Positions 2,301 to 56,679 are shown, numbered from the stretch's first letter. The stretch is 64,000 bases of DNA from Cyanidioschyzon merolae (GCA_000091205.1 AP006501.2), one strand, 5' to 3'. The notes: a model not told the origin generated them from the sequence alone. Program-made: numbers and translations.

Positions 2301-2619
2301 GGATCGATGCACGAGCGCGTCGACGCGATCGAACGGCGCGCAGCCTTCGTCGAGCACCGCGGCTCGCACGCAGCGGCGACGATGCGTGCGCATGCGCGGC
2401 AATGCCGCGAGACGCTTCCTCGAAAAACGCGAGAGAGACAGAGAGCCAAAGCGCTGGCTGGAGAGGAACCTCGTGCACCAGGTGTGTCCGCAACGGTTCT
2501 TGGGTAGAGACTTGGCTCAAGACGAACTTGAAGCCGATACAAAAAACGTGAATCTTGGTTTCTCGGACGAGAGTTAAGACCTCCCGGAGCAAACTCGTTG
2601 CACATTCTTATCGCCAGGC

Positions 2620-4272: not shown

Positions 4273-7168
4273 AGCTTTGGAATAGCCCGCCGGATCGCCG
4301 ACAGTACAGAATGCCACGTCGTCACCAGCGACGCAACAGCAATCACGTCACGAACACGCATCGACAGGTCAAGCGACTCGCGGAAGCGGCTCGTCGCTAT
4401 CGACGTTGTGGTTAACTGGCGCTCTGTACGTGCAATTTGCTGCTGCAGCTGCTGTACGGGTGGCTTCGTATTCCCGGATACGTGCGTATCCGCTGCAGAT
4501 GGTAGCGCGCGGATGCGGAGCAGGAATCACTGTCGGAGGTGCTGCAGTTTTAGAGGTAGGGACCATGAATCTAAACACAGTTCACCAAGTATGTTATTGG
4601 TGTCGGCATCCAAGAAAGCGGACACTCCTCTGCTCCAGGAAGATACTGCGTGGAATGCGAGCATCGGGAGATGCGCTCTAGTCCGGTTCGCAGTCATAAC
4701 AAAAACGGGCCGCTGTTCGAAAATGGTGCTGGTACGCGTGCTGCCGCCGTCGTGCTCATGGACTGCTGAAGCGGGCGGAAGGCCCGATTTCAACGAGTCA
4801 AGCACTTTGTCGCGCATATCTTCAAGCGAACCTTTTTGGCGTATACATGTGGGTTGCGGGTACTCGGTCTCAGACGCAGCATTGCGCAACTGCATGGGCA
4901 ACGACTTCGAGCTGCGGCTGGCGTTGGTACCTGGCTGCCTCCGAGGTACGCGTTCGCTCGCCAGGTGACTCAGGCGCCGCGTTCATCCCTATGAGCAGCG
5001 TCGAGAATCTCCATCTCAATAGGCTCGGTGTTGTGCACGTACGATCGAGGTGTCATCAAAATGGCCAAGCAGCTGGTAGAAAGGTCTCAAAGAAGCATTG
5101 CGAGTCATCGTGTCACCAGGTACGCCATGCGAAAGGCGCACGCTGTGCGGGACGTGTCCCCCGCAGCGTTGTTCAGAAGCGCCCTGCGGGAGCGTTCGCC
5201 TGCTCTGAGGTGCACACACCCCAGTGTGCAGTACCTCGACGATCTCGATCGAGAGTTTCCATTTAGATTGATCATACACCATCCAGTTGCACCGTATGCG
5301 CATACACGGATATCAGCTAGCGAATAGAATTCGTCACTGCGGCGCGAGACTTTGGCTACTAGCTAGTCTGGGGTGCAGACGCACTGCCCGCATCGAACGC
5401 AGCTCAGGTGGCGTCTAATCCGTGTCAAACTAGAACTGAACAGACCGTCCGACACGGGCGTATGTCGTAAAAACTAGGTCTTTCCTCAGTATCATCAACA
5501 AGAGCCTTTGCGGAACGTTCTATGACTGCTTTCTCTCCCTCCGTCTCATCTCCGACTTTAAATACACAAGTCTCTCCTTGCACCCCGGATTTGTTCGCAG
5601 CAGTCGATGGATGTTGATGACAGCGTTAAAGTCGCGATTTCAATGCTTCCAGCTAGTGTCGACGAATGCGATGCATTAGCGGGGGCTGCAATCGACGCAT
5701 CGCTTGCTATGTCCATCTGATTTTTATGCAGCCTCGTTGTGCCTGTCGCAGCGCTGGCCTTTGAATCCAGCCAGATGTTCCCAAATGTCCAGCATTTCTT
5801 CTCCTCCATGCACCGTTCCGCGGAATGTGAACACCTGCTTCATCGTTCGGTACAAGCCATAAATGGGTACAGAAGTATCCCTTCGATGCCGTGCTCCATT
5901 TCCACATCCGTAGCTACGCCCCATGACCATGGGCTTCCTCTCTGTGCGCTGATCCGCGCGTTCTCTGTCATCGGCATTCGCAAGCGCATGGCGCTCCGCT
6001 CGATACGAGCTTTGTAGAACGCGATGTTGTCCATGGTGAATCAAGTACCGGAAGGAAACCCTAGGCTGGAGAACGAGTCGAGAACTGTCGAACTGTCTAC
6101 GCTTCACACGAAGCGATCGCTGCGATGACTCAAGTCGGTGTCGAAGACCCGTATCCAAGCGAACCGAAGAGACCGGACCTACCCATGGAAGCATATCCCG
6201 CCGAAGGCACCATGCTGCTATCGAGCTCCTTTTCGGTCCGATAACCATAAAAAGAGGAAAATTTTTGCTTCGAACGGGATCGACTAGGTGACGTGAAGCG
6301 CCCAGTGCGCGTTCGGCATGTGCTTGGGAACACGACGCCAAGAGACATTCTCGAGTGTATTTCCAGGTGCGTCCAGCGACGCGAACTTCTTCGTCCATGA
6401 GTTGCCATGAAACAGAAAGATCGAAAAATTCAAGAATTCCTTATTTGATCATCTTATATGTAATGCGAGGCGATGCCTGGAACCTTGTGCGTTTGCGTTC
6501 GCTGGTGATATCGGTGATTTCACAAACCTTTGTTCAGTGGCGTCGCGAACCACGTACGTTCCGTTGAGGTAACGAGTCCCGGCGGCAACGCGTCGAAGCA
6601 GCCACTCCGCTAACACGCCAATGAACCCCAAGACAAAACATGAATCCGTAAGCCCTTATTGATGCTCTTCGAGTCGCGAGACAGTACACATATAGACTTG
6701 CAGAAAAATGAACGAAGAGCAGGAACAGAGCGAGACGTTCAGTGTCCTATTTTGTATCTGATACGGATAAACACGCGGGCTCGGCGCGCGCACTGCCTAC
6801 CGTTCGTCGCGGGGCCGCGAGTCGTTGAAACGAACCAGCGATCCACAAAAGCGAGATAGGTTGTGGGTTTTTCTCCCAGGGTCTCGACTCGTTGATACGA
6901 ACCCGGGATCCTCGACAGCGCGACGGTTTGCGTGCTGTTGCGTCTGCGCGTCCAGCGGTTGCGCGAAGCGCGAGCTGCACATATCCGCTCGCGGCGCATC
7001 CATTGCCAGAATCCATATCTTATCGAAAAGGACGCATTTTTACTGTTCATTTCGGATAAGCTGCATTCGTCAACATCGGTTCATCCGTCACTATCCCGTT
7101 CGTCGATCATGCTTCCAACCCAGTGATCGCCACCTTTCGAAACACCGCTCCGTCCATGATAGCACAAT

Positions 7169-17519: not shown

Positions 17520-18191
17520 TCAGAGGCGCTTGAGACTCCGACGCTTCTCGCGCATGCTTGCGCTCATGGCGCCTTGGTTTCCGAGGCCAAAACCACTGGG
17601 ACTCGAGTGGTGCTTCGAACCGGGTGTTGTTCCGGGAGTCTTGCGTTCGCTGGCAGGCCAGGATTTGGGTGCCATGTCCTCGCGTGTTGCAGCGGCACCG
17701 CCGCCACCAGTCCGCGGGGAGGCATGGACTTCCGTCCAGATTCGAGCTCGCGCTGCGAATGCTGCATAGTCCTCGAGTAAGAGTCGACCGGCTTCCTCAT
17801 TCAAGGCGCTCTCTGGATTCGGATCAATGAGCAGACATCGTATTACCGTGAGGACGTGCCGAATCCCATAGCTGCTCTGCCAATCGCGTTTCAGAGTATT
17901 GACGCAGATATCCCCCTGTTCGCTAACGTTGGGATGAAAGATTTTCGTCAAAAAGTAACCCCGAGGCGGCTGGTATGGGTACTCTCCAGAGAGTACGAGC
18001 TTGACTCGAAAGGAACCTGCTTCATATGGAGTATCCTCCGGACCGGTTATGACAGCATGGAGCTCGGTCAAAACGTCTTGACCGCTGTCGTTCAACAGCT
18101 CGACGCCGTGCACCGGTTCATCCCTCAAGCTCTGTACTTCCCGAAAGAGTCTCGTGATGACGCCTGGGGGTAGGTTCTCGCACAACGACAT
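17520..18191 (-). CDS. ubiquitin-conjugating enzyme E2 (UBC domain) with C-terminal low-complexity extension
   Basis: 223-aa ORF containing the UBC fold: FHPNV...GDICVNTLKRDW active-site Cys region and YPYQPP motif. Confidence 0.85.
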   Translation of the reverse strand: MSLCENLPPGVITRLFREVQSLRDEPVHGVELLNDSGQDVLTELHAVITGPEDTPYEAGSFRVKLVLSGEYPYQPPRGYFLTKIFHPNVSEQGDICVNTLKRDWQSSYGIRHVLTVIRCLLIDPNPESALNEEAGRLLLEDYAAFAARARIWTEVHASPRTGGGGAAATREDMAPKSWPASERKTPGTTPGSKHHSSPSGFGLGNQGAMSASMREKRRSLKRL

Positions 18192-18705
18192 GTTGATTTT
18201 TCAAGTACAGTGAAATCGATACGCGTTCCGAGCGTTGCAGCACCAGACGTTTCCCAGACGGAACGACACAATTCACGACCTGGTCGCACAGGCAGCAGAC
18301 TCGAACACACACACACGCACAGCAGGTACACGACGTCTCGCTGAGAGCCGCTATTGAATGCAAGCCCAGGTACCAAGCAGACCTGGTACACGGTGCCGTG
18401 CGCTTGCGGTCGTTGACTGCAAACCGCAACAGCCGTGCCCAAGACCGTTGGCGAACACCCAAGTCCTTGCGTAAACGAACGTGCTCTGCTTGCCGCACGT
18501 CAGTTGCGTAAGACCCTGTTGTAGACGACTGCCGACGGGATCGAGCACCCTGCGATCGTTGATGCGATTTTCGTAACCGCCGTTGCGAATCGAGCGTGTG
18601 GACGGGGCTTGCACTTGTGGGAAGTACGCTTGCCGTTTACAAGTAGAGGAATAGGATCGGAGGTTTGGATCTTGAATTTTAGGAAACAGACGGCAATTTT
18701 GTGTC

Positions 18706-20073
18706 CTCTACCCGTGTTCGTACAAAATGGAACGGGTGCGCGAACACAGGGGTGCACGCTAGAGCCTTGGTCTCTAGCTAGTGGTATCGACACCAGCGTC
18801 TGTGGCAACGCTGTGTGCGTGCTTCCTTTTCTGTTCACTTTCATGCGGTTGTATATTCTCCAGTGTACCCTTTTTTTGCAGATCCGTTCATAGCAGTCGA
18901 GAGACACTGCTAGTACTCTGAAAGTCCCAATATCGCTGGTCTCGGATGCCGTTCTCGCACCCTAGGCATAGAATGTCGTTGCGATCTAGACGCTGCATGC
19001 GAGAGTCATCGCCTTCGCATACAGACAGAGTGTACCACGCTCAGCGGTGACACGTCGCGGTACTCAGGGATTCCCGTATACCCACAATGCATCCCGTTCC
19101 GAAGCGCCGCCCTGTGCCGCGTGAGCACTTCCTTCGCCGTTCCGTGCATGTTGTTGACTGGTAAAGAAGGCTTCTGTCGATGCCTTCCTCCATTCCTGTG
19201 CCCGGTGACATGCACGATGATCACGGGCTCCATCTGGACGATTCCCGCGGCGAGTACGCTACCCGCTGGGCACGCAAGCGCACGCTGCTCCATGCGGTAG
19301 CGCAGCCATGGAATGCAGTATTGCCCGTGATGAAACAAGCACCTGAATGGAACTCCAGAATCGGGATCCAGGCGAGAAATCCAGGACGGTCCACGCTGCC
19401 TTCGTATGCGGCCGTGACGCGCTCATTAGTGGAACCGGTTGCGGCGATGACTGCAGCCCTCGTCCAGGACGCTATTCCATGCAAGCGGAATGCACAGAAG
19501 CTTCTGGGACCATACTTCGTGATGGGCAATGCTTGTGTCGGATCTCGGTTCGACGATAGCCACGGAGAGCGGCGGCTTTGTTTTTTCCAAATGGAACAGG
19601 CTTCCTGACGTAAGCGGTTCCATGAACTCGCCGCATGAGCCTGTGAATACGTCGCCAGCGGACATCGTCGCGTATTTTGTTTCCTCGTCAATCCAGAGAT
19701 CCGCATTGCTGCGTCCACGAGTTGCCTGAAACAGACACATCGAACACCTTGAAGAATGCGTGATTGACGCAGAGGCCAGGCAAGCAATCGAGAGGAATCG
19801 AGGCGACTGCACATGCGTGGATGATGGTATTGTTTTAATGATGCGAAACCCGTGATCGACGGCGCTGGAACTCATCATGATTCCGGTGGTGAAATCGAAT
19901 TGCAGCGTCAGGGAATCGAAGGAGCCTCCACGAAAACACGACCGAAAATATAAAATTCCGCATGCATCCCCAAGCTCTTGTTGCTCTACCTTGAACGTTG
20001 ATGCAGCCCAAGTAAAAAAGATCGAAAAATATCGAAAGATAGACGCAAAGCGTCTAATCCAATCGTCGATTTT
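18706..20073 (-). repeat. copy A1 of ~1.37-kb unclassified interspersed repeat (family A), inverted relative to A2
   Basis: Near-identical to 22581-23960 in reverse complement and to ~55425-56630 in the same orientation. Boundaries found by reading where the flanks diverge. The same sets of spurious ORFs recur in each copy. Confidence 0.85.
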
Positions 20074-21954
20074 ACACCAACATAGCTTCTAGCGAGCGCG
20101 TTCCTCATACCAACTGAGCACACACATAATCGCCCGCAAGGACGACGACACCGGTATGATCAGTAAAGCGATAAGCATTCTAGGACCATAGAGTCTATAT
20201 ATACAATCACTTACAGACGGCTCCTGGGCTTTTTCTGACCGGCCGAGTACTATCGGGTTCAGTTTCTCCCTGTACGCTTCGATCCTGAGAGTCTGACCCA
20301 TAAAGTTGGATCGCCTCAGCTCCTCGTGTCTCGTCTCCAGCGCCGCACATCGTCTGATACTGGTGGCCGCGTTGAACTCTCGGTTTTGCGAACGCTTTGC
20401 ATTTATTGACGCTACTTGAATGTACGTTTGGAACGATTGCCCGCACTCGTGCCCTCTGTGTCACCACAGTCTCGTCATTGTTCCGTCGGCCAAACACCTT
20501 TTCTCGTCTATCTTCCTATTCTGCTTCTGCTTCACATCCCCTTCTTCGCTAGCTGGTCGACGAGATGATGATATTTTCGATTTTTTGTCGAACCCGGCGA
20601 CACAGGACCTCAAGGATCCTCGACTTTCATATCCATACGGATCCCTTAGATTTTTTATTTCTTCAAAATGAGTACATTTATTGGTGCCTTTAGGCGAGTA
20701 TATTCCAGGAATATAAAGCACTTGCATAAGAAACACGTAATGTACCCCAGTGTCACCATGTGCTGGACGCTTCAGCGATTCGCTCAAGGGAGCTATCATT
20801 ACGTTTCACCATACAAAACACCCCTTCTATGAGGTCTAAACACGCAGAGCGCGGAAGAATGAAACGCAGCAGTATACCGCTAGAATCCGAAGAAAGCTAG
20901 AACGCAAGGACAATGGTGAAATACTACATTGTCCAATAGGAGGGCGTCGCCAGACCTCAGGAGAAGGTCTTCAATGATTCGACAAAGTGGTTGGTGCTGT
21001 TGGATGAGCCTTCTCGACGAGCGAAACTGAGGCCGCCAAATGAGTCTACCACGCCTAGCACGGATGATGTCGTCGTTTTCTTCAATTTTACGATCTTACA
21101 TACAACGAGCTCCCTCTCCCTGAATACCCAAACGCTCTACGACCGTTTCACCCGAAGCAAGTCTCATCGACTGAAAACACAAACCTACGTCCCTGTGCTT
21201 CATACCGATCGCAACGTTCCAAGAACGCTGTCACTGCTATTTAGGTGGAATATAATCGTAGGTGAAATTGGATTTTTGGGATTGTATCCTAGTGCTTGTC
21301 GAACTACACGAACAAGCTGTTCAGAGACAGAGACGCCCTTAGTGGCTACCATCGTGACTTTCGCTTTCTGTACGGTGGTCAACAGGTCGTTCTCTACCAC
21401 TGGCCGCTAGCAGTCTTTGAGAATAACCGTTTTTGGCACGGAGCACTGATACTTCTCTCTTTCAATGTCCCTCAACCATAAGAGTACTTTGGTATGACTG
21501 ACCTTATGAAAGAATGCAATTCTCCTTGCACTTTTCAGTAAATCACGTATCCTACATTGAATTCGTCCACGATTTAAACGGTACACTGCATCGTGCTTTC
21601 AATTTCCTGCTCGATGCACTGGAAAAAAAGCATTCGATGACAGGCAGCAGTTGTGGAGCACATCTGAGCTGAATGTGAAGTTAAGATACGAAGCATGCAC
21701 CGCGCGTGCGAACATTTGAAGATGGCGCTCGTGGCTACCCGCCTCGAGTACAGGTCAGGTCATCGCTCAGGCCGTTGCACACTGGCTACGCGCTTGACGT
21801 GCGGGCAAAGAACTGGAAACCGAGGTTCACTGGTGAGTGCACAACTTTCGTCGTTCGATTAAAAGGAACTTGAGAAGCGCGCACGTGACGACCGGTTTGG
21901 CGTCGCCTTCGGAGACGCTTCACCAGGGCGATATCTGCTCCTAGATGGTTATCG

Positions 21955-22557
21955 GTGATGACTCTTTCGGGAGCGTCGTCGTCTAAGGAAGCCCGCTTGC
22001 GGAGCCTTCTGCTCAGCTATGAAGACGCTGAACGCAAGCGAGGAAACCCGGTTCCCTGGCTGAAAACGGAGGAGTTGCGGTCACTCCTGGAGACTGCCGG
22101 CGGGGAGCGGCGCGTCATTCTTATTGACGTTCGTGAAGAGCCGGAGCGTCGGGTCTCTGTCCTTAGAGGCGCGCTCTCGCCTGCACAGATAGAAGGGCTC
22201 TTGAATACCCCAACGACGAGTGAGAACAGTGCCGCGCGGAACAACCTCTCCACGGATACGATGCTTCTGGTTCCGTACTGCACTGCCGGCGTCCGCAGCG
22301 CAGCATACGCCAAATCCCTAATGGCGCAGTACCCTCAATGGGCCGCATGCGTTCGGAACGGAGAGGGTATTATCCGTGCAACTTACGTGATTCCCGAATA
22401 TATTGTGGATCCTGTATCTGGGAAACCCACGAGCAGCGTGCACGCTTATGGGGCAAAATGGGATCTCGCGGCGCCATCGTTCGAAACCGTCCTCTTTTCG
22501 CAGTGGGAGCGACTAGCGCGCACCCTGCGCCCGCCGAGTGGTCGTCTGCATCTGTGA
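21955..22557 (+). CDS. single-domain rhodanese-like (sulfurtransferase-type) protein
   Basis: 200-aa ORF. RVILIDVREEPE...CTAGVRS shows a CX4R rhodanese catalytic loop (6-residue loop, sulfurtransferase type). Confidence 0.68.
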   Translation: MMTLSGASSSKEARLRSLLLSYEDAERKRGNPVPWLKTEELRSLLETAGGERRVILIDVREEPERRVSVLRGALSPAQIEGLLNTPTTSENSAARNNLSTDTMLLVPYCTAGVRSAAYAKSLMAQYPQWAACVRNGEGIIRATYVIPEYIVDPVSGKPTSSVHAYGAKWDLAAPSFETVLFSQWERLARTLRPPSGRLHL

Positions 22558-22580
22558 CGGCACCAGTACCTTAGGGCCCG

Positions 22581-23960
22581 TTATCAGGTGAAAATCGACG
22601 ATTGGATTAGACGCTTTGCGTCTATCTTTCGATATTTTTCGATCTTTTTTACTTGGGCTGCATCAACGTTCAAGGTAGAGCAACAAGAGCTTGGGGATGC
22701 ATGCGGAATTTTATATTTTCGGTCGTGTTTTCGTGGAGGCTCCTTCGATTCCCTGACGCTGCAATTCGATTTCACCACCGGAATCATGATGAGTTCCAGC
22801 GCCGTCGATCACGGGTTTCGCATCATTAAAACAATACCATCATCCACGCATGTGCAGTCGCCTCGATTCCTCTCGATTGCTTGCCTGGCCTCTGCGTCAA
22901 TCACGCATTCTTCAAGGTGTTCGATGTGTCTGTTTCAGGCAACTCGTGGACGCAGCAATGCGGATCTCTGGATTGACGAGGAAACAAAATACGCGACGAT
23001 GTCCGCTGGCGACGTATTCACAGGCTCATGCGGCGAGTTCATGGAACCGCTTACGTCAGGAAGCCTGTTCCATTTGGAAAAAACAAAGCCGCCGCTCTCC
23101 GTGGCTATCGTCGAACCGAGATCCGACACAAGCATTGCCCATCACGAAGTATGGTCCCAGAAGCTTCTGTGCATTCCGCTTGCATGGAATAGCGTCCTGG
23201 ACGAGGGCTGCAGTCATCGCCGCAACCGGTTCCACTAATGAGCGCGTCACGGCCGCATACGAAGGCAGCGTGGACCGTCCTGGATTTCTCGCCTGGATCC
23301 CGATTCTGGAGTTCCATTCAGGTGCTTGTTTCATCACGGGCAATACTGCATTCCATGGCTGCGCTACCGCATGGAGCAGCGTGCGCTTGCGTGCCCAGCA
23401 GATAGCGTACTCGCCGCGGGAATCGTCCAGAAGGAGCCCGTGATCATCGTGCATGTCACCGGGCACAGGAACGGAGGAAGGCATCGACAGAAGCCTTCTT
23501 TACCAGTCAACAACATGCACGGAACGGCGAAGGAAGTGCTCACGCGGCACAGGGCGGCGCTTCGGAACGGGATGCATTGTGGGTATACGGGAATCCCTGA
23601 GTACCGCGACGTGTCACCGCTGAGCGTGGTACACTCTGTCTGTATGCGAAGGCGATGACTCTCGCATGCAGCGTCTAGATCGCAACGACATTCTATGCCT
23701 AGGGTGCGAGAACGGCATCCGAAACCAGCGATATTGGGACTTTCAGAGTACTAGCAGTGTCTCTCGACTGCTATGAACGGATCTGCAAAAAAAAGGTACA
23801 CTGGAGAATATACAACCGCATGAAAGTGAACAGAAAAGGAAGCACGCACACAGCGTTGCCACAGACGCTGGTGTCGATACCACTAGCTAGAGACCAAGGC
23901 TCTAGCGTGCACCCCTGTGTTCGCGCACCCGTTCCATTTGGTACGAACACGGGTAGAGGC
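22581..23960 (+). repeat. copy A2 of family-A repeat; begins 24 bp after the rhodanese stop codon
   Basis: Reverse-complement match to A1 along its whole length. ORF-track proteins in A1 and A2 differ by only a few residues. Confidence 0.85.
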
Positions 23961-24307
23961 TCAAGTGTACGAAAAATTCGCACAGCTCCTGTGCCGAAGA
24001 TTATATATATACCTAAAAATACATTTTAATTCCAATTTATACAGGTTCTGCAAGTCGACCTCGTCGACCACACGGCACCATCGGCGCGCGCACTGACGAA
24101 CACGTGGCTCAACTGCAGCGTCCGCATGTCGGCCGCATCTGCACAACGCCGCTGCATTTCAAAACGAGCCAGCAGCGCTCCTGGCATGGGACGTCTGCAT
24201 CGCCGCTTCGTTGCGACGTGGCAACGCCTGCGCGAACCCGAGAACGGGACGCGAGGTGCTCACGCGTGCGCCGCGAGCGCTCCTCTGTGAACAGCTTACC
24301 TCGTTGA

Positions 24308-24913
24308 GTGATCTTTTGCGTCTTCTTGACTTGTACAATGGATACCTCGCTCGTTTTCAGTAGCTCAGCTGACGTTTTCGGTGTGGACGTTAGGTACACG
24401 TACAAAGTTGATGACAAAACGAACTTTGTACTGCGTGGACTAGCGAACAAAGAAAAGCCTAAACCTTTCGATCACCACTCGGGAGAGTATATCCGGGGTT
24501 GCCTGGTGCATCACTTCCGCACCGTTCCCGACTGGCCAGTGGATGTGAAGCTAATTGCCTGGGCTGCGCAGGGTAAGAACCAAGACCGCTGGGGCGTTAA
24601 AGCCGTCGCTATGAAAACGCTCGCCGTTGATGAAGATACAAAAGCAGAAGCGCGTTTGGTGTTTTCAAATCGCCCCCTAGCGGAGAACCGCAATAGTCTG
24701 CTCTATGGAACGCTGAAACGTACCTTCCGTATTGCCGACGATGAATGGGTGGGCGGCCTCCAGTGTCGCACGGACGGACGTTGCGTTCTCGGGGTTCGGA
24801 ACGGAATGCTGAGCGTCCAAAAAGTGCTTTCCCAGGGTGGACCGACTGGTGAGCCTGGCGAGTGGCGGGCCAAGTACTCTCTCAGTGGTAATGCACCTAG
24901 GCTCTTCTTCTAA
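24308..24913 (+). CDS. hypothetical protein (no recognised domain)
   Basis: 201-aa ORF with coding-like, non-repetitive composition in a gene-sized gap. Probable start at an internal Met (MDTSLVF...). No family recognised. Confidence 0.4.
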   Translation: MIFCVFLTCTMDTSLVFSSSADVFGVDVRYTYKVDDKTNFVLRGLANKEKPKPFDHHSGEYIRGCLVHHFRTVPDWPVDVKLIAWAAQGKNQDRWGVKAVAMKTLAVDEDTKAEARLVFSNRPLAENRNSLLYGTLKRTFRIADDEWVGGLQCRTDGRCVLGVRNGMLSVQKVLSQGGPTGEPGEWRAKYSLSGNAPRLFF

Positions 24914-27628: not shown

Positions 27629-27796
27629 TCCAGTACGTCAGGCATCGAGGTCTCACGAGGGAGCCCTTGTCGGCTTGAAAATGCATTGCATCGAGCCGAT
27701 GCTCGAGCAGGCATCGCGAAATTGGTGTTTCTTTCTAGGACGCGGACGGCAGGACGCACGATGCCGTAACAGTATCCGGGGATAGGCTTGGATCTT

Positions 27797-27835
27797 GCAG
27801 GGTCGGTCGGTCGATCGGTCGGTGGGTCGACTGAC
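27797..27835. repeat. (GGTC)n-like microsatellite
   Basis: gggtcggtcggtcgatcggtcggtgggtcgactgac read directly. Confidence 0.8.
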
Positions 27836-30837: not shown

Positions 30838-31114
30838 GCTACCAGTGGATATCGATGGGATGCCTGGACGGCGGACGCGCTTGCGGTGATCGATGCATCG
30901 ATTTTCCGCCTAGCGCAGACAGCCACTTCCGCCTCTGCCAACGGGGTGGCGCATCGACAGAGCGACGACCTCACCGCCGCCGCGGCCGCCCAGCGAACGT
31001 CCACAAGGTGAATCCAGCATGCGTTGCTAGGTGATGCGCTGGAGGCGTTTTCGCCAATCGCATGCAGCATCGCGTGTTTGGCGCAGCCCGATGCCGCAAA
31101 TCCCTTGAAGCAAT

Positions 31115-31749: not shown

Positions 31750-32814
31750 GAGGGCGCGTTCCGTGGCAGGCTGTTGCGCACAGATAGGTTGCTGTCGCGC
31801 GCCTGGCTCTGTCCCAGGTCTCGGACGATGGAGTGGAGCGTTTCGGTTGACCCAGTGCTATCGCAATGTCTCCAGGAAATGTAAAGCAATAGAAAACTTT
31901 TGAGCAGGTACCTTCAGGAATCCGTAGAGCCCTTGCTGCTGTTTCGTGATCCCACGTCTCCCAGATGACAGGTCAGGGGGCGGTTGCATCGGGAATGCGG
32001 TGGCTGAACAGGATGCCGGTCGTCGATCCGGTGGATACGCTTGCCCGCTAGCCGAGTCCAGATCCGAGTGAACGATTTCGTTTGCAACTGGAGACCGCCT
32101 TGCACTGCATTCATGCTGTGACAGTGAAGATTCCGGGATTCCGTAACTGCGCTCGATCGCAGTGATGTTGCAGCTCGCGGCAAAAGACGTCTAGCGACAC
32201 CACCACGGACGCACGCTCACGAATATCGATGCTGAAAGAGCAGCTGTGGTTCCATGTCGGTTTTTCGGAAGAGTTCAAATATGGCAGGCGACGAGCGTTG
32301 CCAGCGTTGGATACCCTAGAGAGAACGACAACAGGGAAGCATACGAGTCTAGCGTACCGCGAACGAATATCAAGTCCGTCCCTGGCCTATCCACTATTGC
32401 GCAGATGGACGTGGGCACCAGATCGTTACACCCGTGAGCAAATACTTCTCCATGTCGTTGTCTGTAAAGCCTGCGCCTTATAATTCTATCAAGAACCATG
32501 AAAAGACATACGCGAAGAAATCAAGCCTTACAAAGGGCCGCAAAACATCAACGCCATCTGTGTCGTCGCAAAGCACCTACGCAGAAACCCGTCATGGCCA
32601 TAGCACGATCCTGTGGCACCGAGACTTGGCATCCATTGTTATGTGAAGGCAGATATTCCATGAATTCTACCAGACCCATGTCAGAGGAACATGGAACGTG
32701 TCTACTCTGCTGACTCGGGCGTACAATCGAAAGTTTGGGACTCTTTTTAATGCCATCAGCACCAATATTCGCCGAATTTTGCGTGACTGCTTCTTTTTGT
32801 GTTTCATGTCCCGA

Positions 32815-34050
32815 TTTAGATACGCAGGTGTCTCTCGTGTACCGCCAGATCCATTGCCAACAGTCGAAAGATGATGTACGCTTTCAAGTCCTGATTCCGC
32901 TGCTTCCGGCTGCCGTTCATGGAGTACGAGGACCAGGGAAGACAACGATTTTCGCATTGCTTTTCATCTTTCATCTCGCTTGTATTCACCCTCGGTGCGC
33001 CGCTCACAACCGTGACACATGACTGAGGTCAGCAGTTCCTCTGCTGCACAACACGCTCTCCTCCGAATGCCGCCCTGGAGCGCGTGAACGCCTCGTTCAT
33101 CGCTCGCGAGATGCCCATGGCGAGCACAGAAGGCCACCCGCGTTGCCGTCCTCTGTTTCAGCACCCAGTACGGTACCCTGTGATCACGGGCTTCTTCGGG
33201 ATGATCCCCAGTGTACCTGGTGTGTTTGCGGTACGCGCAAGCACATGCTGTCGCCGTCAATAGATGGTGTGCGGAACCCGCTCATGCCCCCGAGGGATCA
33301 CGTGCCGGAAGGCGAATCGGGCCCGGAGACCCGATCGAGCGGGTGTCGCAACGTCGACGCTCCCTTCGTGCAAGGCGGTGACGTGTGATCGGTTGGATGC
33401 ATCCGGTACAACGAATCAAGTCCGAACTCCAGACTCTTTTCCGTACAAGTAGATTAGCGGGAAGCCTCTGAGAGCCGATGCCCTGAGAGCTATCACGCTT
33501 CTGTCGAGATCCGTTTTGTCGCTGAGTTCACAGAGACTAGGACTTGCGTTTCGAACGGAATCGTTGATTAGATGTGATTTGTTCAGGAAACGCTCGGAAT
33601 GCACTTGTGCACACATCGTCAGGGCACGACGTCGCGCTCGTTCCCCAGTGCATCCAGCGCCGCGCATTGCCGCGCCCACGAGTTGATTCAGAACTGAGAG
33701 AAGATCGAAAACGTGCACGAACGCGTGAGCCTCTCATGCAGCATGTGAGGAATGGAGAAGAACAGAGGCTTTCGCGTACGAGCTGGATGACGACACTGGT
33801 TATTTTACGAATCGCTATTCGATGAAGTTGCGAAATATCTTGAGTTCCAGTGACTCGACGAATTCCAGTAGCAATGGTTCGAGGTCATTTTGCGGAAAAA
33901 CGGCGACTGGGAACGCTAAACTTACGCATGAGTCCGTAAGCCCTGCTTGCTCTACGTCGAATATCGATGCTGTTCATCTAGAACAAGTTCGGAAAACAAT
34001 CCCCAGGCAGAAAGAGGTCACCCATTCAAGTGTTCTTTCCGAATGGAACA
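32815..34050 (+). repeat. copy B1 of ~1.24-kb repeat (family B, distantly related to family A); ends ~200 bp upstream of the PrxQ start
   Basis: Near-identical to 38011-39250 (offset ~5196 bp), starting at tttagatacgcaggtgtctctcg. Identity decays gradually after ~34030/39230. Confidence 0.85.
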
Positions 34051-37256: not shown

Positions 37257-38010
37257 ACCCGCCATAACATTGGACATTGTCAGTCATGTACAACGCTGAA
37301 ATGAGGCGCCAGATGTGCATGGAGTCCGCAAACAACATCTGATAGCGCTCGGGACGCTTAACAAGAGTCAGCGACCAGGAAATCATCCTAGTTCTTGATC
37401 ATTTCAAAACATTTGTCAACGAAACCGGGTCCTGCACGCTGGTTATTTTTCGCGCGAGGCTGTACTCGCTCCATGTACTGTTCCGTTGCAGCGTCACGAA
37501 TGCGGAATTTTCACGAGCGAATCTGAACAGTCTCTGTGCGATACACGGCTTTCAGTTAACCAGCGAGCTCTGTCCGTGCACTGCGCTTGCTCTACGCTTC
37601 ACGGACTGCGCAGTCGGCCAACTGCCGCCGGTGTGCGTTCAAACTTTGGGTGAACAGCGCAAGCGACCAGCGTATCAGGCATAGTGCTGAAGTCAAACTG
37701 AACGACGCAACGCTCTGTAACTGAGAATCAGCTCCGCCGATTCAGGGAGATGCACCCAAAGAAACGGTGAAAACAACGTAAAGAATCGAAGGGCTCTCAG
37801 ACCGACGTGGCGTTGGTACGCACTGGCTTGATGAAGCGCTCGTAACAGTAATCGAATGCAGTTACACGAGTGCCAGACTACAAGGAAAACAGTTCCGCTT
37901 AGCTAACTCGGGTGTACGAGCGAAAGCTTGCGCTGTTTCCAACTGTCATCAGCGTCAGCCTTGCGAGCTTTCTCTGCGACCGCTTCCTTTGCCTCTCTTG
38001 TATCTGCGGC

Positions 38011-39250
38011 TTTAGATACGCAGGTGTCTCTCGTGTACCGCCAGATCCATTGCCAACAGTCGAAAGATGATGTACGCTTTCAAGTCCTGATTCCGCTGCT
38101 TCCGGCTGCCGTTCATGGAGTACGAGGACCAGGGAAGACAACGATTTTCGCATTGCTTTTCATCTTTCATCTCGCTTGTATTCACCCTCGGTGCGCCGCT
38201 CACAACCGTGACACATGACTGAGGTCAGCAGTTCCTCTGCTGCACAACACGCTCTCCTCCGAATGCCGCCCTGGAGCGCGTGAACGCCTCGTTCATCGCT
38301 CGCGAGATGCCCATGGCGAGCACAGAAGGCCACCCGCGTTGCCGTCCTCTGTTTCAGCACCCAGTACGGTGCCCTGTGATCACGGGCTTCTTCGGGATGA
38401 TCCCCAGTGTACCTGGTGTTTTTGCGGTACGCGCAAGCACATGCTGTCGCCGTCAATAGATGGTGTGCGGAACCCGCTCATGCCCCCGAGGGATCACGTG
38501 CCGGAAGGCGAATCGCGCCCGGAGACCCGATCGAGCGGGTGTCGCAACGTCGACGCTCCCTTCGTGCAAGGCGGTGACGTGTGATCGGTTGGATGCATCC
38601 GGTACAACGAATCAAGTCCGAACTCCAGACTCTTTTCCGTACAAGTAGATTAGCGGGAAGCCTCTGAGAGCCGATGCCCTGAGAGCCATCACGCTTCTGT
38701 CGAGATCCGTTTTGTCGCTGAGTTCACAGAGACTAGGACTTGCGTTTCGAACGGAATCGTTGATTAGATGTGATTTGTTCAGGAAACGCTCGGAATGCAC
38801 TTGTGCACACATCGCTAGGGCACGACGTCGCGCTCGTTCCCCAGTGCATCCAGCGCCGCGCATTGCCGCGCCCACGAGTTGATTCAGAACTGAGAGAAGA
38901 TCGAAAACGTGCACGAACGCGTGAGCCTCTCATGCAGCATGTGAGGAATGGAGAAGAACAGAGGCTTTCGCGTACGAGCTGGATGACGACACTGGTTATT
39001 TTACGAATCGCTATTCGATGAAGTTGCGAAATATCTTGATTTCCAGTGACTCGACGAATTCCAGTAGCAATGGTTCGAGGTCATTTTGCGGAAAAACGGC
39101 GACTAGGAACGCTAAACTTACGTATGAGTCCGTAAGCCCTGCTCGCTCTACGTCGAATATCGATGCTGTTCATCTAGAACAAGTTCGGAAAACAATCCCC
39201 AGGCAGAAAGAGGTCACCCATTCATGTGCTCTTTCGGAATGGAATCCAAT
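38011..39250 (+). repeat. copy B2 of family-B repeat; ends ~50 bp upstream of the ETF-beta start codon
   Basis: See B1. Embedded ORF-track proteins differ from B1 by single residues. Confidence 0.85.
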
Positions 39251-46036: not shown

Positions 46037-48890
46037 CCAAAACGTGCAACTCCTGTCCTGTAGAAGTTAGCAACGCTTTCGTTTATCCTTTGCGGAAGGC
46101 GCGTGCGCGTCGCTTCACGGGAGCACGACAGGCGACCCGCGTATCGACGCCGGCATCGCGTGTTGCGCTGTGGCGATTTGAAATCAGCGCGCGCTGCCGT
46201 GCCTCGCAATGGACGTGCCCTGCTAGACGCAGTTGACAACTCGATCTATCTGTATTTTTCTCGAGTTCCTTGAGGAACGGAAAATTCAGGAAGCAGACGG
46301 GACGTCCTGGTTTGGATTCGCATCCTAAGGTGTAGCATTCATGAGTCGCAGTAGAGGGTGGTATACCGCGCATGTCGACGTTAGACGGTAAAACGATCTT
46401 CGTTGCCCTCTGAATGCTTCTGCGAAGTGCGAGCCGCGGCGCAAATATAGGTCCAGGAGCCGAAGCAAACGAAAGAACTATCGAGTCTTAAAAAGCGAAT
46501 TTCGATGAAAATGGGGCAGTGAACTGCTCGTTCTCTTCGTGGCTATCGATATTTTTAGACATCGGTTTTCAAGAACATCCTCGATATTCTATGTGCAGCG
46601 AATAAGGATTGTCGGATTCAGATGCAGTTTTTTTCTTCGGATTCAAAGTCGAGTTTTTGGAGTGGCTCTTTCGATGCTTTGTCGCTAAAATTTGAGATGC
46701 TGCCAGCTTCAAGGCGATTCGCGACGCCCACGAACAAGCGATCGTAAGATGACCGATGCTCGTTTCCAAGTCAAATGTCCTTGGCTCTGCTCTTTTCCGT
46801 TCCTGACGTGTCCCATGCTCAAAGAACGCATTCTTCTAGGTTTCAATCGTTATATTTTCAACGAAACTCGTGGACGTTGCCATATCCGCTCATGGATTTC
46901 CGAAGGAAACTATGCAACGTCGTCTCGCGACGCGCTTTTGATAAGCTCACACCCAAAGTTCATGGAGCGCGCACACGTCAAATAAACGATTCCGTTCGGA
47001 AGACATATCCTCCTGTGTCGGTGGCAATTGCCGAAACTGCACGCGACAGCAGCATTATCTCTCTCACCGCTTACGTTAGATTAGGCTCCCGGCTCTTCTG
47101 TTTGCACGGGAAATGGCCGTGGACTCGAACTTGCGGCCTAGCAGCGATTGCTTCCAATGGAGCATGTGTCAGCGATTGCAGGAAATTAGCGTAGACGGAT
47201 CGGAATTTCTGGATTTGGTCTCCATCCAGGTTTTTCCTCCCAGTACTTGTTTCATCCTAGACAGCATCGCGTGCCACAAATCCTCTGTCGAATGGAACCT
47301 CGTTCGCTCGCAGCAGACAGCGTGCTCGCCAACGGAAGCGCCCTGAATACACCTCTGATCATACGATATAGCGCAGGGAATGGAAGCGAAAAGCCTTGAG
47401 TAGCGCCCTCTGTACACTGCAAGGGCATGTATCGCGTGACGAAAGCGAGCCTGCCCAGGCCATGGGTGGTCCTCGGAGCAGGAGCACGTGCGGTGGACCA
47501 ATTGGAACACCTCACAACTGCCAAGTGTCACCGTTGCAAAGTGCGCAACGAGGCTGTACGCAAAGAATATGAAAATCGCCAGCGGAACATAGACTGGAAC
47601 TTCCGCCCGTGCAGTGTATGCGTCGACAGCCGCCAGATGCTGCGAAATTCGGATGATAACGCTGCCACCAATATCCGTCGACTGCTGACACGCGAGCCGG
47701 ACTCAAACAAGCGGGTGGTTATTGAAAGCCGGATCTTTGAGATAAGAAACCGAAGCTGGCGTGGAAATCCGCCTCAAAGGCTGGTGTTGACGGCAATTGC
47801 AAGACATCCAAACGTTGTTATGCACGCTCACATTGGGGGGGGGGACCTATTCCTTGCTACTCAGATGCATTTTTGTTGTGGACGCCCAAGTCAGCAAAGG
47901 GGACTCTTTCCATTTTATTCTGACGTGGAAATAGGTTTGGGTGAGCGAATAACGCGCCGAAAGTCGATATTAATCGCGTACCCAGGTCAGTCTGGCTCGG
48001 TGCATCGTTTCTAAACCGCAAAACCAGGACCACACACCTGTGGTATCCGGGGGAAGCTGCTAGTGCCGCAAATCATTTACACCGCATAGAATTCGCCGGG
48101 CAGTCTGATACGTATGTTTCAGGGCCAGAGCAGGGGCTCTTCTGTGCCGAAGGCTTCACGGACATTACCTAACGAGACGCGAGCATACCACCCAGACACG
48201 TCCATGAAACCCATTCGACACGTAATGCGTGGATACCTGTCCCAGTTTGATTCACCCCCGCATGCACAGCATGCAATACGGAGCTGGTATCCGCAAACCG
48301 CATCCTCGAAAGCTTCTTCTTCTTCGTTGTCCTATTCACTTGTGAAAGTTATACAAAAGCGACCCGAATACTCCAACGCCTTGTTCTTCAAACGAAGGTG
48401 CAGCTCTCTTGTCCCGTGCTACGATCCGGTAAAGACGGATATCGCTCGAATCCGATGCAGCGACTGCAGGCGCCCGCGTTAGGAGTGCGCTCTCTCCATG
48501 GGACCAGCGTAAACGCAGCATCATCTTGAGGAGCATCGCACACTGGGTGCGTAAAGCGCGGGATACTGCAGATTGCCGCTGGTGCGAATCCAAGCCAATC
48601 TGGGCAATGATACGTGGTCTACGAATTCAAGTCAGGATGGAGCATGCTTCATGTGTGCTGCTCCCGAAAAGTCGCTTTTCTAACGCGGTCACTCGGTGCA
48701 CCTCGTCCTGCAAATCGGTGAAGCGACCCAGCGGCATCATTCCTCACAACCCTCTGGTCCTAACTTGATTCATTTGGAATCAGCGATACCATCGCCAGTG
48801 ACGCGCAACAAGCGCTTACACGTTCTACCGGCAATACGAGCAGCGAGCAGCTCTTCCGCGCTGCTACGTTTCACGTGCTAATTACCGCTC

Positions 48891-54736: not shown

Positions 54737-55424
54737 TGAGCTCCGCTTCCGATGTAAACGTTATCCATAAAAACTTACAGAGTAAAGCCTCAAGTGTGCT
54801 GAAAGGTTGAATACGACCTCACTTTCACTTAAAGTAGGATCAAACCCGCAGCACCGGTGCGCAACTTGTCAAAAATTGTCGAGCTCCGGGAACTCACCAC
54901 GGCTCTGTTACAGTGAGCAAGATGCGTCCGTGCGTCCAACAAGAGACTCGTGGTCAAGTTGTTTATCCGATCGAGTAACGAAGACACGCTCGGGCGAAAG
55001 AAAGCGCTTCAAGAAGAGGCTGTGTATTCGGGATATTACAATTGGTGTACACCGTTTTGAAGGGGCATGCGCGATACCGATACCCATACAGCGCGATACA
55101 GCGATGACGAGAACCTGGTGCGTCGCTGAAGCTAAAGTTTGGGCCTCTTCAGAGCTGTTCACTAGTGCTGCTTGCTTGCACTATGGGGCATGCGTCAGCG
55201 AGACATGAGCAACTGCTAGGCGGGAGCGCGCTGAACGACGACCGCCATAGACGCTTTACGGTTCGTGCACTTCCCAGCTTGTCTTACGCTCATGCGAGAC
55301 TATGAAGGGATGGGTCCAGCAACTCGGATACACACTCTAAAGTTGGTATCTCTTGCTATTATCGTCAAGACAAGGCTTCTCGGGGTTTTCTGAGACAACA
55401 TCTTTTTCATCTTCCTTACCTTTC

Positions 55425-56630
55425 GGTGTATATTCTCCAGTGTACCTTTTTTTTTGCAGATCCGTTCATAGCAGTCGAGAGACACTGCTAGTACTCTGAA
55501 AGTCCCAATATCGCTGGTTTCGGATGCCGTTCTCGCACCCTAGGCATAGAATGTCGTTGCGATCTACACGCTGCATGCGAGAGTCATCGCCTTCGCATAC
55601 AGACAGAGTGTACCACGCTCAGCGGTGACACGTCGCGGTACTCAGGGATTCCCGTATACCCACAATGCATCCCGTTCCGAAGCGGCGCCCTGTGCCGCGT
55701 GAGCACTTCCTTCGCCGTTCCGTGCATGTTGTTGACTGGTAAAGAAGGCTTCTGTCGATGCCTTCCTCCATTCCTGTGCCCGGTGACATGCACGATGATC
55801 ACGGGCCCCTTCTGGACGATTCCCGCGGCGAGTACGCTACCCGCTGGGCACGCAAGCGCACGCTGCTCCATGCGGTAGCGCAGCCATGGAATGCAGTATT
55901 GCCCGTGATGAAACAAGCACCTGAATGGAACTCCAGAATCGGGATCCAGGCGAGAAATCCAGGACGATCCACGCTGCCTTCGTATGCGGCCGTGACGCGC
56001 TCATTAGTGGAACCGGTTGCGGCGATGACTGCAGCCCTCGTCCAGGACGCTATTCCATGCAAGCGGAATGCACAGAAGCTTCTGGGACCATACTTCGTGA
56101 TGGGCAATGCTTGTGTCGGATCTCGGTTCGACGATAGCCACGGAGAGCGGCGGCTTTGTTTTTTCCAAATGGAACAGGCTTCCTGACGTAAGCGGTTCCA
56201 TGAACTCGCCGCATGAGCCTGTGAATACGTCGCCAGCGGACATCGTCGCGTATTTTGTTTCCTCGTCAATCCAGAGATCCGCATTGCTGCGTCCACGAGT
56301 TGCCTGAAACAGACACATCGAACACCTTGAAGAATGCGTGATTGACGCAGAGGCCAGGCAAGCAATCGAGAGGAATCGAGGCGACTGCACATGCGTGGAT
56401 GGTGGTATTGTTTTAATGCTGCGAAACCCGTGATCGACGGCGCTGGAACTCATCATGATTCCGGTGGTGAAATCGAATTGCAGCGTCAGGGAATCGAAGG
56501 AGCCTCCACGGAAACACGACCGAAAATATAAAATTCCGCATGCATCCCCAAGCTCTTGTTGCTCTACCTTGAACGTTGATGCAGCCCAAGCAAAAAAGAT
56601 CGAAAAATATCGAAAGATAGGCGCAAAGCG
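55425..56630 (-). repeat. copy A3 of family-A repeat (slightly truncated or diverged at both ends), between ITPK1 and the UBE2J-like gene
   Basis: Same-orientation match to A1 from gtatattctccagtgtacc to cgaaagatag.cgcaaagcg. Contains the same spurious ORF set as A1 and A2. Confidence 0.82.
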
Positions 56631-56679
56631 AGTCATTCCATGTTCCATTATAATCTGACATGAGTGTAGGCAGGCACTG

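What the first reader, a model, noticed from the sequence alone, without database searches (positions are those of the whole stretch)
18706..23960. 1.37-kb inverted repeat (A1/A2) around a 2.5-kb spacer holding an AT-richer gene-free segment and a rhodanese gene
A1 and A2 are in opposite orientation 2507 bp apart, a configuration that can form a large stem-loop or cruciform and mediates inversion by homologous recombination. The spacer has ~1.7 kb of noticeably AT-richer, ORF-poor DNA (20100-21800), unusual for this GC-rich gene-dense sequence. It also has a 200-aa rhodanese gene whose stop codon lies only 24 bp from the A2 boundary. Relative to A3, both arms carry an extra shared ~40 bp (…tctaatccaatcgtcgatttt) on their spacer-proximal side, consistent with a secondary inverted duplication. 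An AT-rich core flanked by inverted repeats is also the layout of fission-yeast-type regional centromeres. That analogy is speculative; Cyanidioschyzon centromeres are reported as short AT-rich islands.
Basis: partly seen in the sequence, partly recalled or inferred. Interest (0 to 1): 0.6.

Follow-up and report, generated by a model that had tools for sequence, protein, structure and literature searches.

The report
Inverted repeat pair flanking rhodanese gene
[quoted passage not shown] The structure is real, but nothing found here shows it is a centromere.

Summary
Arms 18705-20078 and 22587-23959 are 99.4% complementary, about 2.5 kb apart, and the segment between them holds the lowest-GC 2 kb of the window (47.2% against 55.0%).

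The window is C. merolae 10D chromosome 19. All four repeat junctions recur in independent metagenome DNA assemblies, so this is not a misassembly.

The arms are two of seven members of a dispersed, non-coding ~1.2-kb repeat family in the window. Diverged relatives occur in other cyanidiophyte genomes. The family may be the published "WSV repeat".

Related species keep the same gene order (E2, rhodanese, 191-aa gene) but lack both arms and the AT-rich DNA. These are therefore lineage-specific insertions around an ancestral, correctly oriented gene.

The inner 809 nt of the 10D arms are identical, whereas wild strains differ there by about 2-3%. That indicates gene conversion between the arms.

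Contigs that seem to show a flipped spacer are probably RNA-derived with collapsed arms, so inversion is unproven.

The AT-rich part fits the published size and GC of C. merolae centromeres. I put the centromere reading at about 10%.

The parts
18705..20078 (+). Arm A1: full-length subfamily-A copy of the dispersed repeat. The core shared with the whole family is 18787-19982.
   Evidence: 99.4% to A2. (nhmmer family core). No Pfam hit, TIR, TSD or poly(A) tail.
22587..23959 (-). Arm A2: inverted copy of A1 (family core 22682-23877). It begins 29-33 nt after the rhodanese stop codon.
   Evidence: Its junction with the right flank is seen in 10 DNA contigs.
20079..21196 (.). S_L: single-copy, AT-rich (about 47% GC) segment with no internal repeats, abutting the inner end of A1. 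It is absent from the syntenic site in relatives. One contig carries a colinear version about 25% diverged (S_L*).
   Evidence: L012/L038 comparison. Identity to lineage-I strains is 98.7-99.6%.
21197..21957 (-). S_R: spacer part kept near-identical in all strains. It is the region upstream of rhodanese and carries a minus-strand polyadenylated transcript. That strand has one frame of about 171 codons with two stops, ending at 21200. Poly(A) sites lie at about 21057 and 21073, inside S_L.
   Evidence: No Pfam or PDB match.
21958..22557 (+). Single-domain rhodanese-like gene, 199 aa, with active-site loop CTAGVRS. It is conserved in related cyanidiophytes at the same syntenic place and orientation.
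   Evidence: Pfam PF00581 E=0.0056, below the gathering score. Orthologues at 51-57% identity with an invariant VPYCTAGVRSA loop. Synteny.
55378..56661 (+). A3: third subfamily-A copy, direct relative to A1 and inverted relative to A2. It lacks about 119 nt at the 5'/outer end.
5492..6660 (+). Family member D, 54-55% identical to A.
   Evidence: nhmmer E=1.3e-66. Identity matrix.
32709..34048 (+). Family member B1 (core 32755-33948). It forms a direct pair with B2 at 96% identity.
37902..39244 (+). Family member B2 (core 37950-39144).
46601..47790 (-). Family member C. It coincides with the second-lowest GC patch of the window.
17520..18191 (-). Left flanking gene: ubiquitin-conjugating enzyme E2 (BAM82894.1). 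It anchors the locus to C. merolae 10D chromosome 19.
24338..24913 (+). Right flanking gene: conserved 191-aa protein, followed by the Ctr/cytochrome b561 gene.

Best explanation
The structure is an inverted pair of one dispersed, non-coding, roughly 1.2-1.4-kb repeat element. The window holds seven copies of this family, and it may be the published 'WSV repeat' of C. merolae.

The two copies were inserted or duplicated on either side of an ancestral rhodanese gene in the C. merolae lineage. A unique 1.1-kb AT-rich segment (S_L) next to arm A1 arrived in the same lineage.

Gene order and rhodanese orientation in the reference genome are the ancestral ones. The two arms exchange sequence by gene conversion, which keeps them near-identical in strain 10D. 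The same homology could in principle invert the 2.5-kb spacer, but that is inferred, not shown.

The most likely status is a neutral structural by-product of repeat insertion or duplication, not a dedicated functional device.

Shown: the repeat, its family membership, its lineage-specific presence, its existence in wild populations, and arm homogenisation. Inferred: the order of insertion and duplication events, and the capacity for inversion.
For: - Repeat geometry and identity.
- Organism and chromosome.
- All four junctions are found in independent DNA assemblies. About ten spacer-only contigs of 2.6-3.07 kb are bounded by inverted arm stubs.
- Seven family copies: nhmmer E from 1e-62 to 0, with no hits from 20 shuffled queries or from control genomic segments.
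- Related copies sit in other genomic contexts in other cyanidiophytes (L043, L044-L047).
- The family looks non-coding. There is no 3-periodicity of conservation, tblastx scores are similar in all frames, and there is no Pfam hit.
- Relatives L030, L031 and L033 keep XRN+, Pyr_redox_2+, E2-, rhodanese+, 191-aa gene+, Ctr+ in the same order and orientation.
- In those relatives, E2-rhodanese is 1126-1406 bp against 3767 bp here, and rhodanese-191aa is 351-596 bp against 1781 bp here. The excess equals A2 on one side and A1 + S_L on the other.
- No family member and no AT-rich patch occurs at the syntenic sites in relatives.
- All seven 10D arm substitutions lie in 18724-19264 and the inner 809 nt are identical. 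Arms differ at 6 of 335 sites in L001 and 9 of 270 in L036.
Against: - No transposon hallmarks (TIR, TSD, poly(A) tail) were found at the arm ends, so the way the copies arrived is unknown.
- Family members are only 53-56% identical yet share the same boundaries within and between species. That hints at constraint, and hence a function I could not identify.
- Identity with the published WSV repeat is untested. The published mean size (3.2 kb) and density (253 copies genome-wide) do not match 1.2-1.4 kb and 7 copies in 64 kb.
- S_L has no identified origin.
- The CENH3 map was not available, so a centromere function of S_L is not excluded.
Confidence: 0.7

Rival explanations
1. The locus is the centromere of chromosome 19. 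The AT-rich, unique S_L (with part of A1) would be the CENH3-binding core, and the inverted repeat would play the structural role it has in Komagataella phaffii or fission-yeast centromeres.
For: - Secondary sources citing Kanesaki 2015 describe C. merolae centromeres as single 2-3-kb non-repetitive regions per chromosome, with mean GC 48.4% against 55%.
- The window's GC minimum (47.2% over 2 kb, z about -4) and the unique, repeat-free S_L fit that description.
- By gene index the window lies about two thirds along chromosome 19, not at an end.
- K. phaffii shows that a 1-kb core with 2-kb inverted repeats can be a complete centromere.
Against: - The prior is about 5%, because the window is 5% of the chromosome.
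- Four of the five lowest-GC 2-kb windows here overlap copies of the same repeat family, so low GC is not specific.
- A related genome shows a 44%-GC, 1-kb intergenic patch in only 20 kb.
- The spacer contains a conserved rhodanese gene and polyadenylated transcript ends at 21057/21073. K. phaffii cores are gene-free transcription coldspots.
- The syntenic site in relatives is not AT-rich.
- The literature stresses that C. merolae centromeres show no other pattern.
Confidence: 0.1
2. The spacer is an invertible segment. Both orientations, and a larger 31-kb inversion between A2 and A3, exist in natural populations through crossover between the repeat copies.
For: - At least nine contigs from different samples join the rhodanese 3' end through a full repeat copy to the E2 flank (L013-L019, L039-L042).
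- One contig joins it to the left flank of A3 (L012/L038).
- Gene conversion between the arms shows that they do interact.
- C. merolae has efficient homologous recombination (cited).
Against: - Those contigs look RNA-derived. They have non-templated poly(T) at their starts (L013/L039, L041) and Illumina adapter at defined ends (L018, L019). The 39th-longest contig of one assembly is only 17 kb.
- In an RNA assembly the identical arms collapse and only transcribed junctions are followed, which produces exactly these joins without any inversion.
- The same rhodanese-side junction is linked to two different outer flanks, as collapse predicts.
- The DNA contigs that traverse an arm (L001, L007) have the reference orientation, which is also the outgroup orientation.
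Confidence: 0.2
3. The inverted duplication is an assembly artefact of the reference genome.
Against: - All four junctions and the spacer bounded by inverted stubs are recovered in many independent metagenome assemblies of closely related strains.
- In strain L001 the two arms differ by 1.8%, so they are distinct loci.
Confidence: 0.02

Closest known systems
C. merolae interspersed repetitive element ('WSV repeat'; Nozaki et al. 2007, PMC1955436; Mikulski et al. 2017, PMC5405695)
   Same: Both are dispersed on the chromosome, have no intact ORF, are specific to this lineage and appear to be transcribed. The WSV repeat is the only abundant repeat class described for this genome.
   Different: The published elements average 3.2 kb, with 253 copies (about one per 65 kb). 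Here the units are 1.2-1.4 kb at seven per 64 kb, and subfamilies are only 53-56% identical. The defining weak similarity to WSSV protein WSV486 could not be tested.
Inverted-repeat centromeres of Komagataella phaffii (Coughlan et al., 10.1101/056382)
   Same: Both have a compact layout: a unique core of 1-2.5 kb between inverted repeats of 1.4-2 kb. In both the arms are homogenised by recombination. K. phaffii isolates differ in core orientation.
   Different: K. phaffii cores bind Cse4, are gene-free transcription coldspots, and have repeats unique to each centromere. Here the spacer carries a conserved gene and transcripts, the arms belong to a dispersed family, and CENH3 binding is unknown.
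CENH3-mapped centromeres of C. merolae (Kanesaki et al. 2015, as cited in 10.1101/096016 and PMC12636532)
   Same: S_L plus its neighbourhood matches the reported size (2-3 kb), the GC (about 48% against 55%) and the non-repetitive nature.
   Different: Those centromeres are reported to show no further pattern, with no inverted repeats mentioned.
Large inverted repeats that mediate inversion or gene conversion (for example plastid IRs, the yeast 2-micron plasmid, human palindromic segmental duplications)
   Same: Both are kilobase-scale inverted arms kept near-identical by intrachromosomal gene conversion, with potential for spacer inversion.
   Different: No site-specific recombinase is involved, flip-flop has not been demonstrated, and there is no evidence that orientation matters. 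The rhodanese upstream region lies inside the spacer and would move with the gene.

Membership tests
IR-type regional centromere (K. phaffii / S. pombe / C. tropicalis) | CENH3/Cse4 enrichment on the core between the repeats | not testable with these tools
   No ChIP data are accessible. Kanesaki 2015 is not held, and the supplements of PMC12874030 are not held.
IR-type regional centromere (K. phaffii / S. pombe / C. tropicalis) | Unique core flanked by kilobase inverted repeats | tested here: met
   1374-nt arms at 99.4% identity around a 2508-nt single-copy spacer.
IR-type regional centromere (K. phaffii / S. pombe / C. tropicalis) | Core free of genes and transcriptionally silent | tested here: not met
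   The spacer holds a conserved rhodanese gene. RNA-derived contigs show poly(A) ends at 21057/21073. Only about 1 kb of S_L is without evidence of transcription, and its S_L* variant lies in an apparently RNA-derived contig (L012).
IR-type regional centromere (K. phaffii / S. pombe / C. tropicalis) | Repeats specific to the centromere, not dispersed on the arms | tested here: not met
   A third near-identical copy lies 31.6 kb away, and there are four more diverged family members in the window.
C. merolae CENH3-mapped centromere (Kanesaki 2015) | 2-3 kb region with GC about 48% against 55% genome-wide | tested here: met
   19688-21687 is 47.2% GC and 20074-21957 is 48.6%.
C. merolae CENH3-mapped centromere (Kanesaki 2015) | Coincides with the single CENH3 peak of its chromosome | not testable with these tools
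   Neither the window's position on chromosome 19 nor the published peak coordinates could be obtained.
C. merolae interspersed 'WSV repeat' | Many dispersed copies on all chromosomes | tested here: inconclusive
   Seven copies in this 64-kb window, plus diverged copies in other cyanidiophyte contigs. The genome-wide count is not available.
C. merolae interspersed 'WSV repeat' | Truncated ORF weakly similar to WSSV protein WSV486 | not tested
   No WSV486 sequence was available. A full HMMER search with the 216-aa ORF gave no viral hit, but only one frame was searched.
C. merolae interspersed 'WSV repeat' | Mean size about 3.2 kb | tested here: not met
   Units here are 1.2-kb cores and 1.34-1.37 kb full length, with consistent boundaries.
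Class II (TIR) transposon or non-LTR retroposon | Terminal inverted repeats and target-site duplication, or a 3' poly(A) tail with a target-site duplication | tested here: not met
   There is no TIR between the first and last 80 nt, no duplicated flank at A1 or A2, and no poly(A) tail. The 5' shortening of A3 is the only retroposon-like trait.
Rhodanese-like domain protein (PF00581) | Pfam match above the gathering score | tested here: not met
   E=0.0056, 17.5 bits against a cut-off of 22.2.
Rhodanese-like domain protein (PF00581) | Active-site loop C-x-x-G-x-R-(S/T) conserved in orthologues | tested here: met
   VPYCTAGVRSA is invariant in three species. That this loop pattern defines the family rests on my own knowledge.
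Known structured RNA family (Rfam) | Covariance-model match | tested here: not met
   No match in the whole window at gathering thresholds, and only two chance-level matches at E up to 10 in 18400-22000. There are no tRNAs.

The most novel reading that the evidence does not exclude
The AT-rich unique segment between A1 and the rhodanese gene is the CENH3-bound centromere of C. merolae chromosome 19. It would then be a compact inverted-repeat centromere of the Komagataella/fission-yeast type in a red alga, built from copies of a dispersed repeat and kept symmetrical by gene conversion.
Probability: 0.1. Interest if true: 0.65.

Novelty: new member of a known kind. Interest (0 to 1): 0.3.

Why it matters
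As it stands, the locus is a clean example of how a dispersed repeat reshapes an otherwise extremely compact, syntenic red-algal genome. Two insertions or duplications and a 1.1-kb AT-rich insertion tripled two intergenic spacers. They also created a 1.4-kb inverted repeat that undergoes gene conversion.

This has practical consequences:
- Short-read DNA and RNA assemblies of this region collapse or mis-join.
- Homologous-recombination-based engineering near this locus could target the wrong arm.

The side finding may matter more. A ~1.2-kb non-coding family is present about every 9 kb in this window. Its members are only about 55% identical yet share boundaries within and between species. This suggests that C. 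merolae's repeat content, or a class of constrained non-coding elements, is under-annotated.

If the centromere reading were true, it would extend inverted-repeat centromeres beyond fungi.

Tried and rejected
- **RNA genes.** Rfam at gathering thresholds on the whole window, Rfam at E up to 10 on 18400-22000, and ARAGORN found no RNA gene.
- **Protein domains.** Pfam on all ORFs of at least 60 aa in the arms and spacer gave nothing above chance. A PDB sequence search of the minus-strand 171-codon frame gave nothing.
- **Homologues of arm ORFs.** Word-indexed protein searches with the 142-aa and 216-aa arm ORFs returned only their own clusters.
- **Coding test on the 150-aa arm ORF.** It has 7 of 9 variants at third codon positions but only 5 synonymous against 4 non-synonymous. 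The family shows no 3-periodicity, so I rejected it as a gene.
- **Conserved RNA structure of the family.** RNAalifold on four sequences gave a covariation term of -5 out of -106 kcal/mol with many broken pairs. This is inconclusive and I did not pursue it.
- **Transposon hallmarks.** The search for TIRs, TSDs and a poly(A) tail was negative.
- **Flank homology.** No homology was found between the flanks of A3 and those of A1, and no decayed family copy in S_L.
- **Internal repeats.** There are no tandem or internal repeats in the spacer.
- **Metagenome scan.** The scan for rhodanese loci returned only 4 loci and added little.
- **Chromosome coordinates.** The NCBI record was not in the DNA index.
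- **Centromere coordinates.** Kanesaki 2015 and Maruyama 2008 are not held. The papers that cite them give no coordinates, and no supplements are held.
- **'S_L is hypervariable'.** I rejected this as a general statement. Lineage-I strains are 98.7-99.6% identical there.
- **'Composite transposon carrying rhodanese'.** I rejected this because the gene sits at its ancestral syntenic position and orientation.


Full report
**1. Observation**

The repeat finder reports inverted arms at 18705-20073 and 22591-23959. They are 1369 nt long, 99% complementary and 2517 nt apart. A third copy lies at 55448-56658.

BLAST extends the arms to 18705-20078 / 23959-22587 at 99.4% over 1374 nt. This leaves a 2508-nt spacer.

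The window averages 55.1% GC. Segment 20074-21800 is 48.0% GC, and the lowest 2-kb window is 19688-21687 at 47.2%. The mean over all 2-kb windows is 55.0% with sd 1.9%, and the next minimum is 50.6%.

The spacer's ORFs upstream of 21958 are short and have no family matches.

The rhodanese-like CDS is 21958-22557.

They also share 119-145 extra nt on the distal side.

**2. Source and reality of the structure**

Two flanking proteins are exact matches to C. merolae 10D entries: E2 is BAM82894.1 and the 641-aa flavoprotein is BAM82893.1. Both lie on a 1,282,939-bp record, which is the length of chromosome 19.

From the running number of the protein in the proteome, the window lies roughly two thirds along the chromosome. 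This is an inference.

Metagenome DNA contigs from closely related strains (99.0-99.5% identical) reproduce every junction:
- Left flank into A1: L002-L010.
- A1 into the AT-rich spacer: L001, L007.
- Spacer into A2: L001.
- A2 into the right flank: L020-L029.

About ten assemblies yield a 2.6-3.07-kb contig that is just the spacer bounded by inverted arm stubs, for example L011 and L036. This is the expected graph signature of a real inverted repeat. Misassembly is excluded.

**3. What the arms are**

The arm ORFs have no Pfam hits. Outside their own clusters they have no relatives in a word-indexed search.

A full HMMER search with the 216-aa ORF found four short, junk-like ORFs at 35-39% identity. 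Two of them were traced to contigs of other cyanidiophytes. One sits next to UCH and Nop genes (L043) and the other next to a nucleoporin gene (L044-L047).

At the DNA level, about 1.2 kb of the arm aligns to these loci at 58-59% identity with sharp, shared boundaries.

The same sensitive search shows four more copies inside the window. With the three A copies, the seven members are:
- D at 5492-6660 (+)
- A1 at 18787-19982 (+)
- A2 at 22682-23877 (-)
- B1 at 32755-33948 (+)
- B2 at 37950-39144 (+)
- C at 46601-47790 (-)
- A3 at 55378-56560 (+)

nhmmer E-values are 1e-62 or better. Twenty shuffled queries and about twenty control genomic segments gave no hits.

Subfamilies are 53-56% identical to each other, both within 10D and between species.

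The family appears to be non-coding:
- Conservation shows no 3-base periodicity.
- tblastx scores are alike in all frames.
- There are no TIRs, TSDs or a poly(A) tail.
- There is no Rfam match.
- RNAalifold gives only a weak covariation term.

The only abundant repeat described for this genome is the 'WSV repeat'. It has 253 copies with a mean of 3.2 kb, makes up about 5% of the genome and is transcribed. Half of the annotated repetitive elements carry H3K27me3.

The present family may be that element. However, the size and density differ, and the WSV486 similarity could not be tested.

**4. Comparative anatomy**

The rhodanese-like protein has orthologues at 51-57% identity with an invariant VPYCTAGVRSA active-site loop.

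In those genomes (L030/L031 on contigs of 351-676 kb, and L033) the gene order and orientation match the window: XRN+, Pyr_redox_2+, E2-, rhodanese+, 191/204-aa gene+, Ctr+, epimerase-, MAPEG+. The intergenic distances differ:

| Interval | Relatives | C. merolae 10D |
|---|---|---|
| E2 to rhodanese | 1126-1406 bp | 3767 bp |
| Rhodanese to 191-aa gene | 351-596 bp | 1781 bp |

Only the three genes align. No family member and no AT-rich patch is present at the syntenic sites in relatives, where GC is 0.51-0.61.

Subtracting A2 leaves 412 bp on the right. Subtracting A1 leaves 2393 bp on the left, about 1 kb too long, which equals S_L (20079-21196, 1118 bp).

So A1, A2 and S_L are C. merolae-lineage additions around a gene that kept its ancestral place and orientation. 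This also rules out a composite transposon that brought the gene in.

**5. Arm dynamics**

In 10D all seven substitutions between the arms lie in 18724-19264, and the inner 809 nt are identical.

In wild strains the inner stubs differ at 6 of 335 sites (L001) and 9 of 270 sites (L036). That exceeds the 0.5-1% divergence between strains.

The inverted repeat is therefore older than the strain splits. In 10D it has been partly homogenised, which is evidence for gene conversion between the arms.

**6. Is the spacer inverted in some populations?**

At least nine contigs join the rhodanese 3' end through a whole repeat copy to the E2 flank. One contig joins it to the left flank of A3. Taken at face value, these are the flip isomer and a 31-kb inversion.

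These contigs, however, carry signs of an RNA origin:
- Non-templated poly(T) runs at their starts (L013/L039 at 21073, L041 at 21057).
- Illumina adapter at fixed ends (L018 at 18600, L019 at 18659).
- Hairpin-like terminal inversions in L014 and L016.
- Assemblies whose 39th-longest contig is only 17 kb.

I infer that they are RNA assemblies. In such assemblies identical arms collapse, and only the transcribed junctions are followed. That yields these joins from the reference arrangement.

The DNA contigs that truly cross an arm (L001, L007) have the reference orientation. In L001 the arms are distinguishable, which makes that contig credible. Inversion polymorphism is therefore unproven.

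**7. The AT-rich segment**

S_L is single-copy, has no internal repeats and has no family match. It is 98.7-99.6% identical among lineage-I strains, so it is not generally hypervariable.

One contig (L012/L038) carries a colinear version only about 73-75% identical. Identity jumps to about 99.7% exactly at 21197. This is a deeply diverged haplotype of unknown origin.

The part to the right of 21197 (S_R) is near-identical in all strains. Its minus strand has a frame of about 171 codons with only two stops, ending at 21200. The poly(A) sites lie 127-143 nt downstream. This suggests an unannotated transcript divergent from rhodanese, with no recognisable protein.

**8. Centromere hypothesis**

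Secondary sources describe C. merolae centromeres as one 2-3-kb, non-repetitive region per chromosome. Their mean GC is 48.4% against 55%, with no other pattern. S_L and its surroundings fit those numbers.

The evidence against is as follows:
- The prior is 5%, because the window is 5% of the chromosome.
- Four of the five lowest-GC 2-kb windows overlap copies of the repeat family.
- A related genome has a 44%-GC intergenic kilobase within 20 kb.
- The spacer holds a conserved gene and transcript ends.
- The syntenic site in relatives is not AT-rich.

I estimate about 10%.

The closest structural analogue is the K. phaffii centromere, with a 1-kb core, 2-kb inverted repeats and orientation polymorphism. 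Two of its defining features are not met here: a gene-free silent core, and repeats private to the centromere.

**9. Verdict**

This is a real, well-supported inverted pair of a dispersed non-coding repeat. It brackets an ancestral rhodanese gene and a lineage-specific AT-rich insertion, and the arms interact by gene conversion. Neither inversion nor centromere function is demonstrated.

Interest is modest. The under-described ~1.2-kb family is the most noteworthy by-product.

Noticed in passing
window 5492-6660, 18787-19982, 22682-23877, 32755-33948, 37950-39144, 46601-47790, 55378-56560: There are seven members of a ~1.2-kb non-coding repeat family (about 13% of the window). Subfamilies are only 53-56% identical but share boundaries. 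Similarly diverged copies occur in other cyanidiophyte contigs (L043, L044-L047). Four of the five lowest-GC 2-kb windows overlap these copies.
   Followed up: yes
window 21958-22557: The exact 199-aa rhodanese-like protein is absent from the NCBI/UniProt C. merolae 10D entries in the collection (JGI metagenomes only). It may therefore be unannotated, or annotated with another start, in the reference genome, although it is conserved in three species.
   Followed up: partly
window 21200-21715 (minus strand), poly(A) sites ~21057 and ~21073: One minus-strand frame of about 171 codons has only two in-frame stops and ends 3 nt from the point where strain identity jumps. RNA-derived contigs end with non-templated poly(T) just beyond it. 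This looks like an unannotated transcript divergent from rhodanese.
   Followed up: partly
L012/L038 1-830 versus window 20287-21196: A colinear but about 25% diverged version of the AT-rich segment (S_L*) is joined at window position 21197 to sequence about 99.7% identical to 10D. This is a deeply diverged haplotype or an introgressed tract.
   Followed up: partly
window 32709-34048 and 37902-39244: A direct repeat pair (96% identity, 5.2 kb apart) of another subfamily of the same element lies near the peroxiredoxin genes. Metagenome contigs also break there (L023-L028).
   Followed up: partly
cluster member P0026 (426 aa); window 21958-23238: The rhodanese ORF and the 216-aa ORF of arm A2 are in the same frame, 10 codons apart. 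Some metagenome strains carry a 426-aa read-through fusion.
   Followed up: no
L020 (JGI 3300050362) versus window 23994-30983: This contig shows a tandem duplication of about 4.5 kb covering the 191-aa gene to the Ctr gene. It may be a strain variant or an assembly artefact.
   Followed up: no
window 2062-2311: There is a tandem array of a 67-nt unit, about 3.7 copies at 79% identity.
   Followed up: no
L018 and L019 right ends (window 18600 and 18659): Illumina adapter follows fixed genomic positions 45-105 nt outside arm A1. This suggests transcript 5' ends that read into the repeat from the region shared with the divergent E2 gene.
   Followed up: partly
window 19426-19878 (minus strand; same ORF in A2 at 22588-23238): The 150-aa ORF in the arms has 7 of 9 variants among copies and strains at third codon positions, but no homologues, and the family shows no periodicity. 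It is probably chance.
   Followed up: yes
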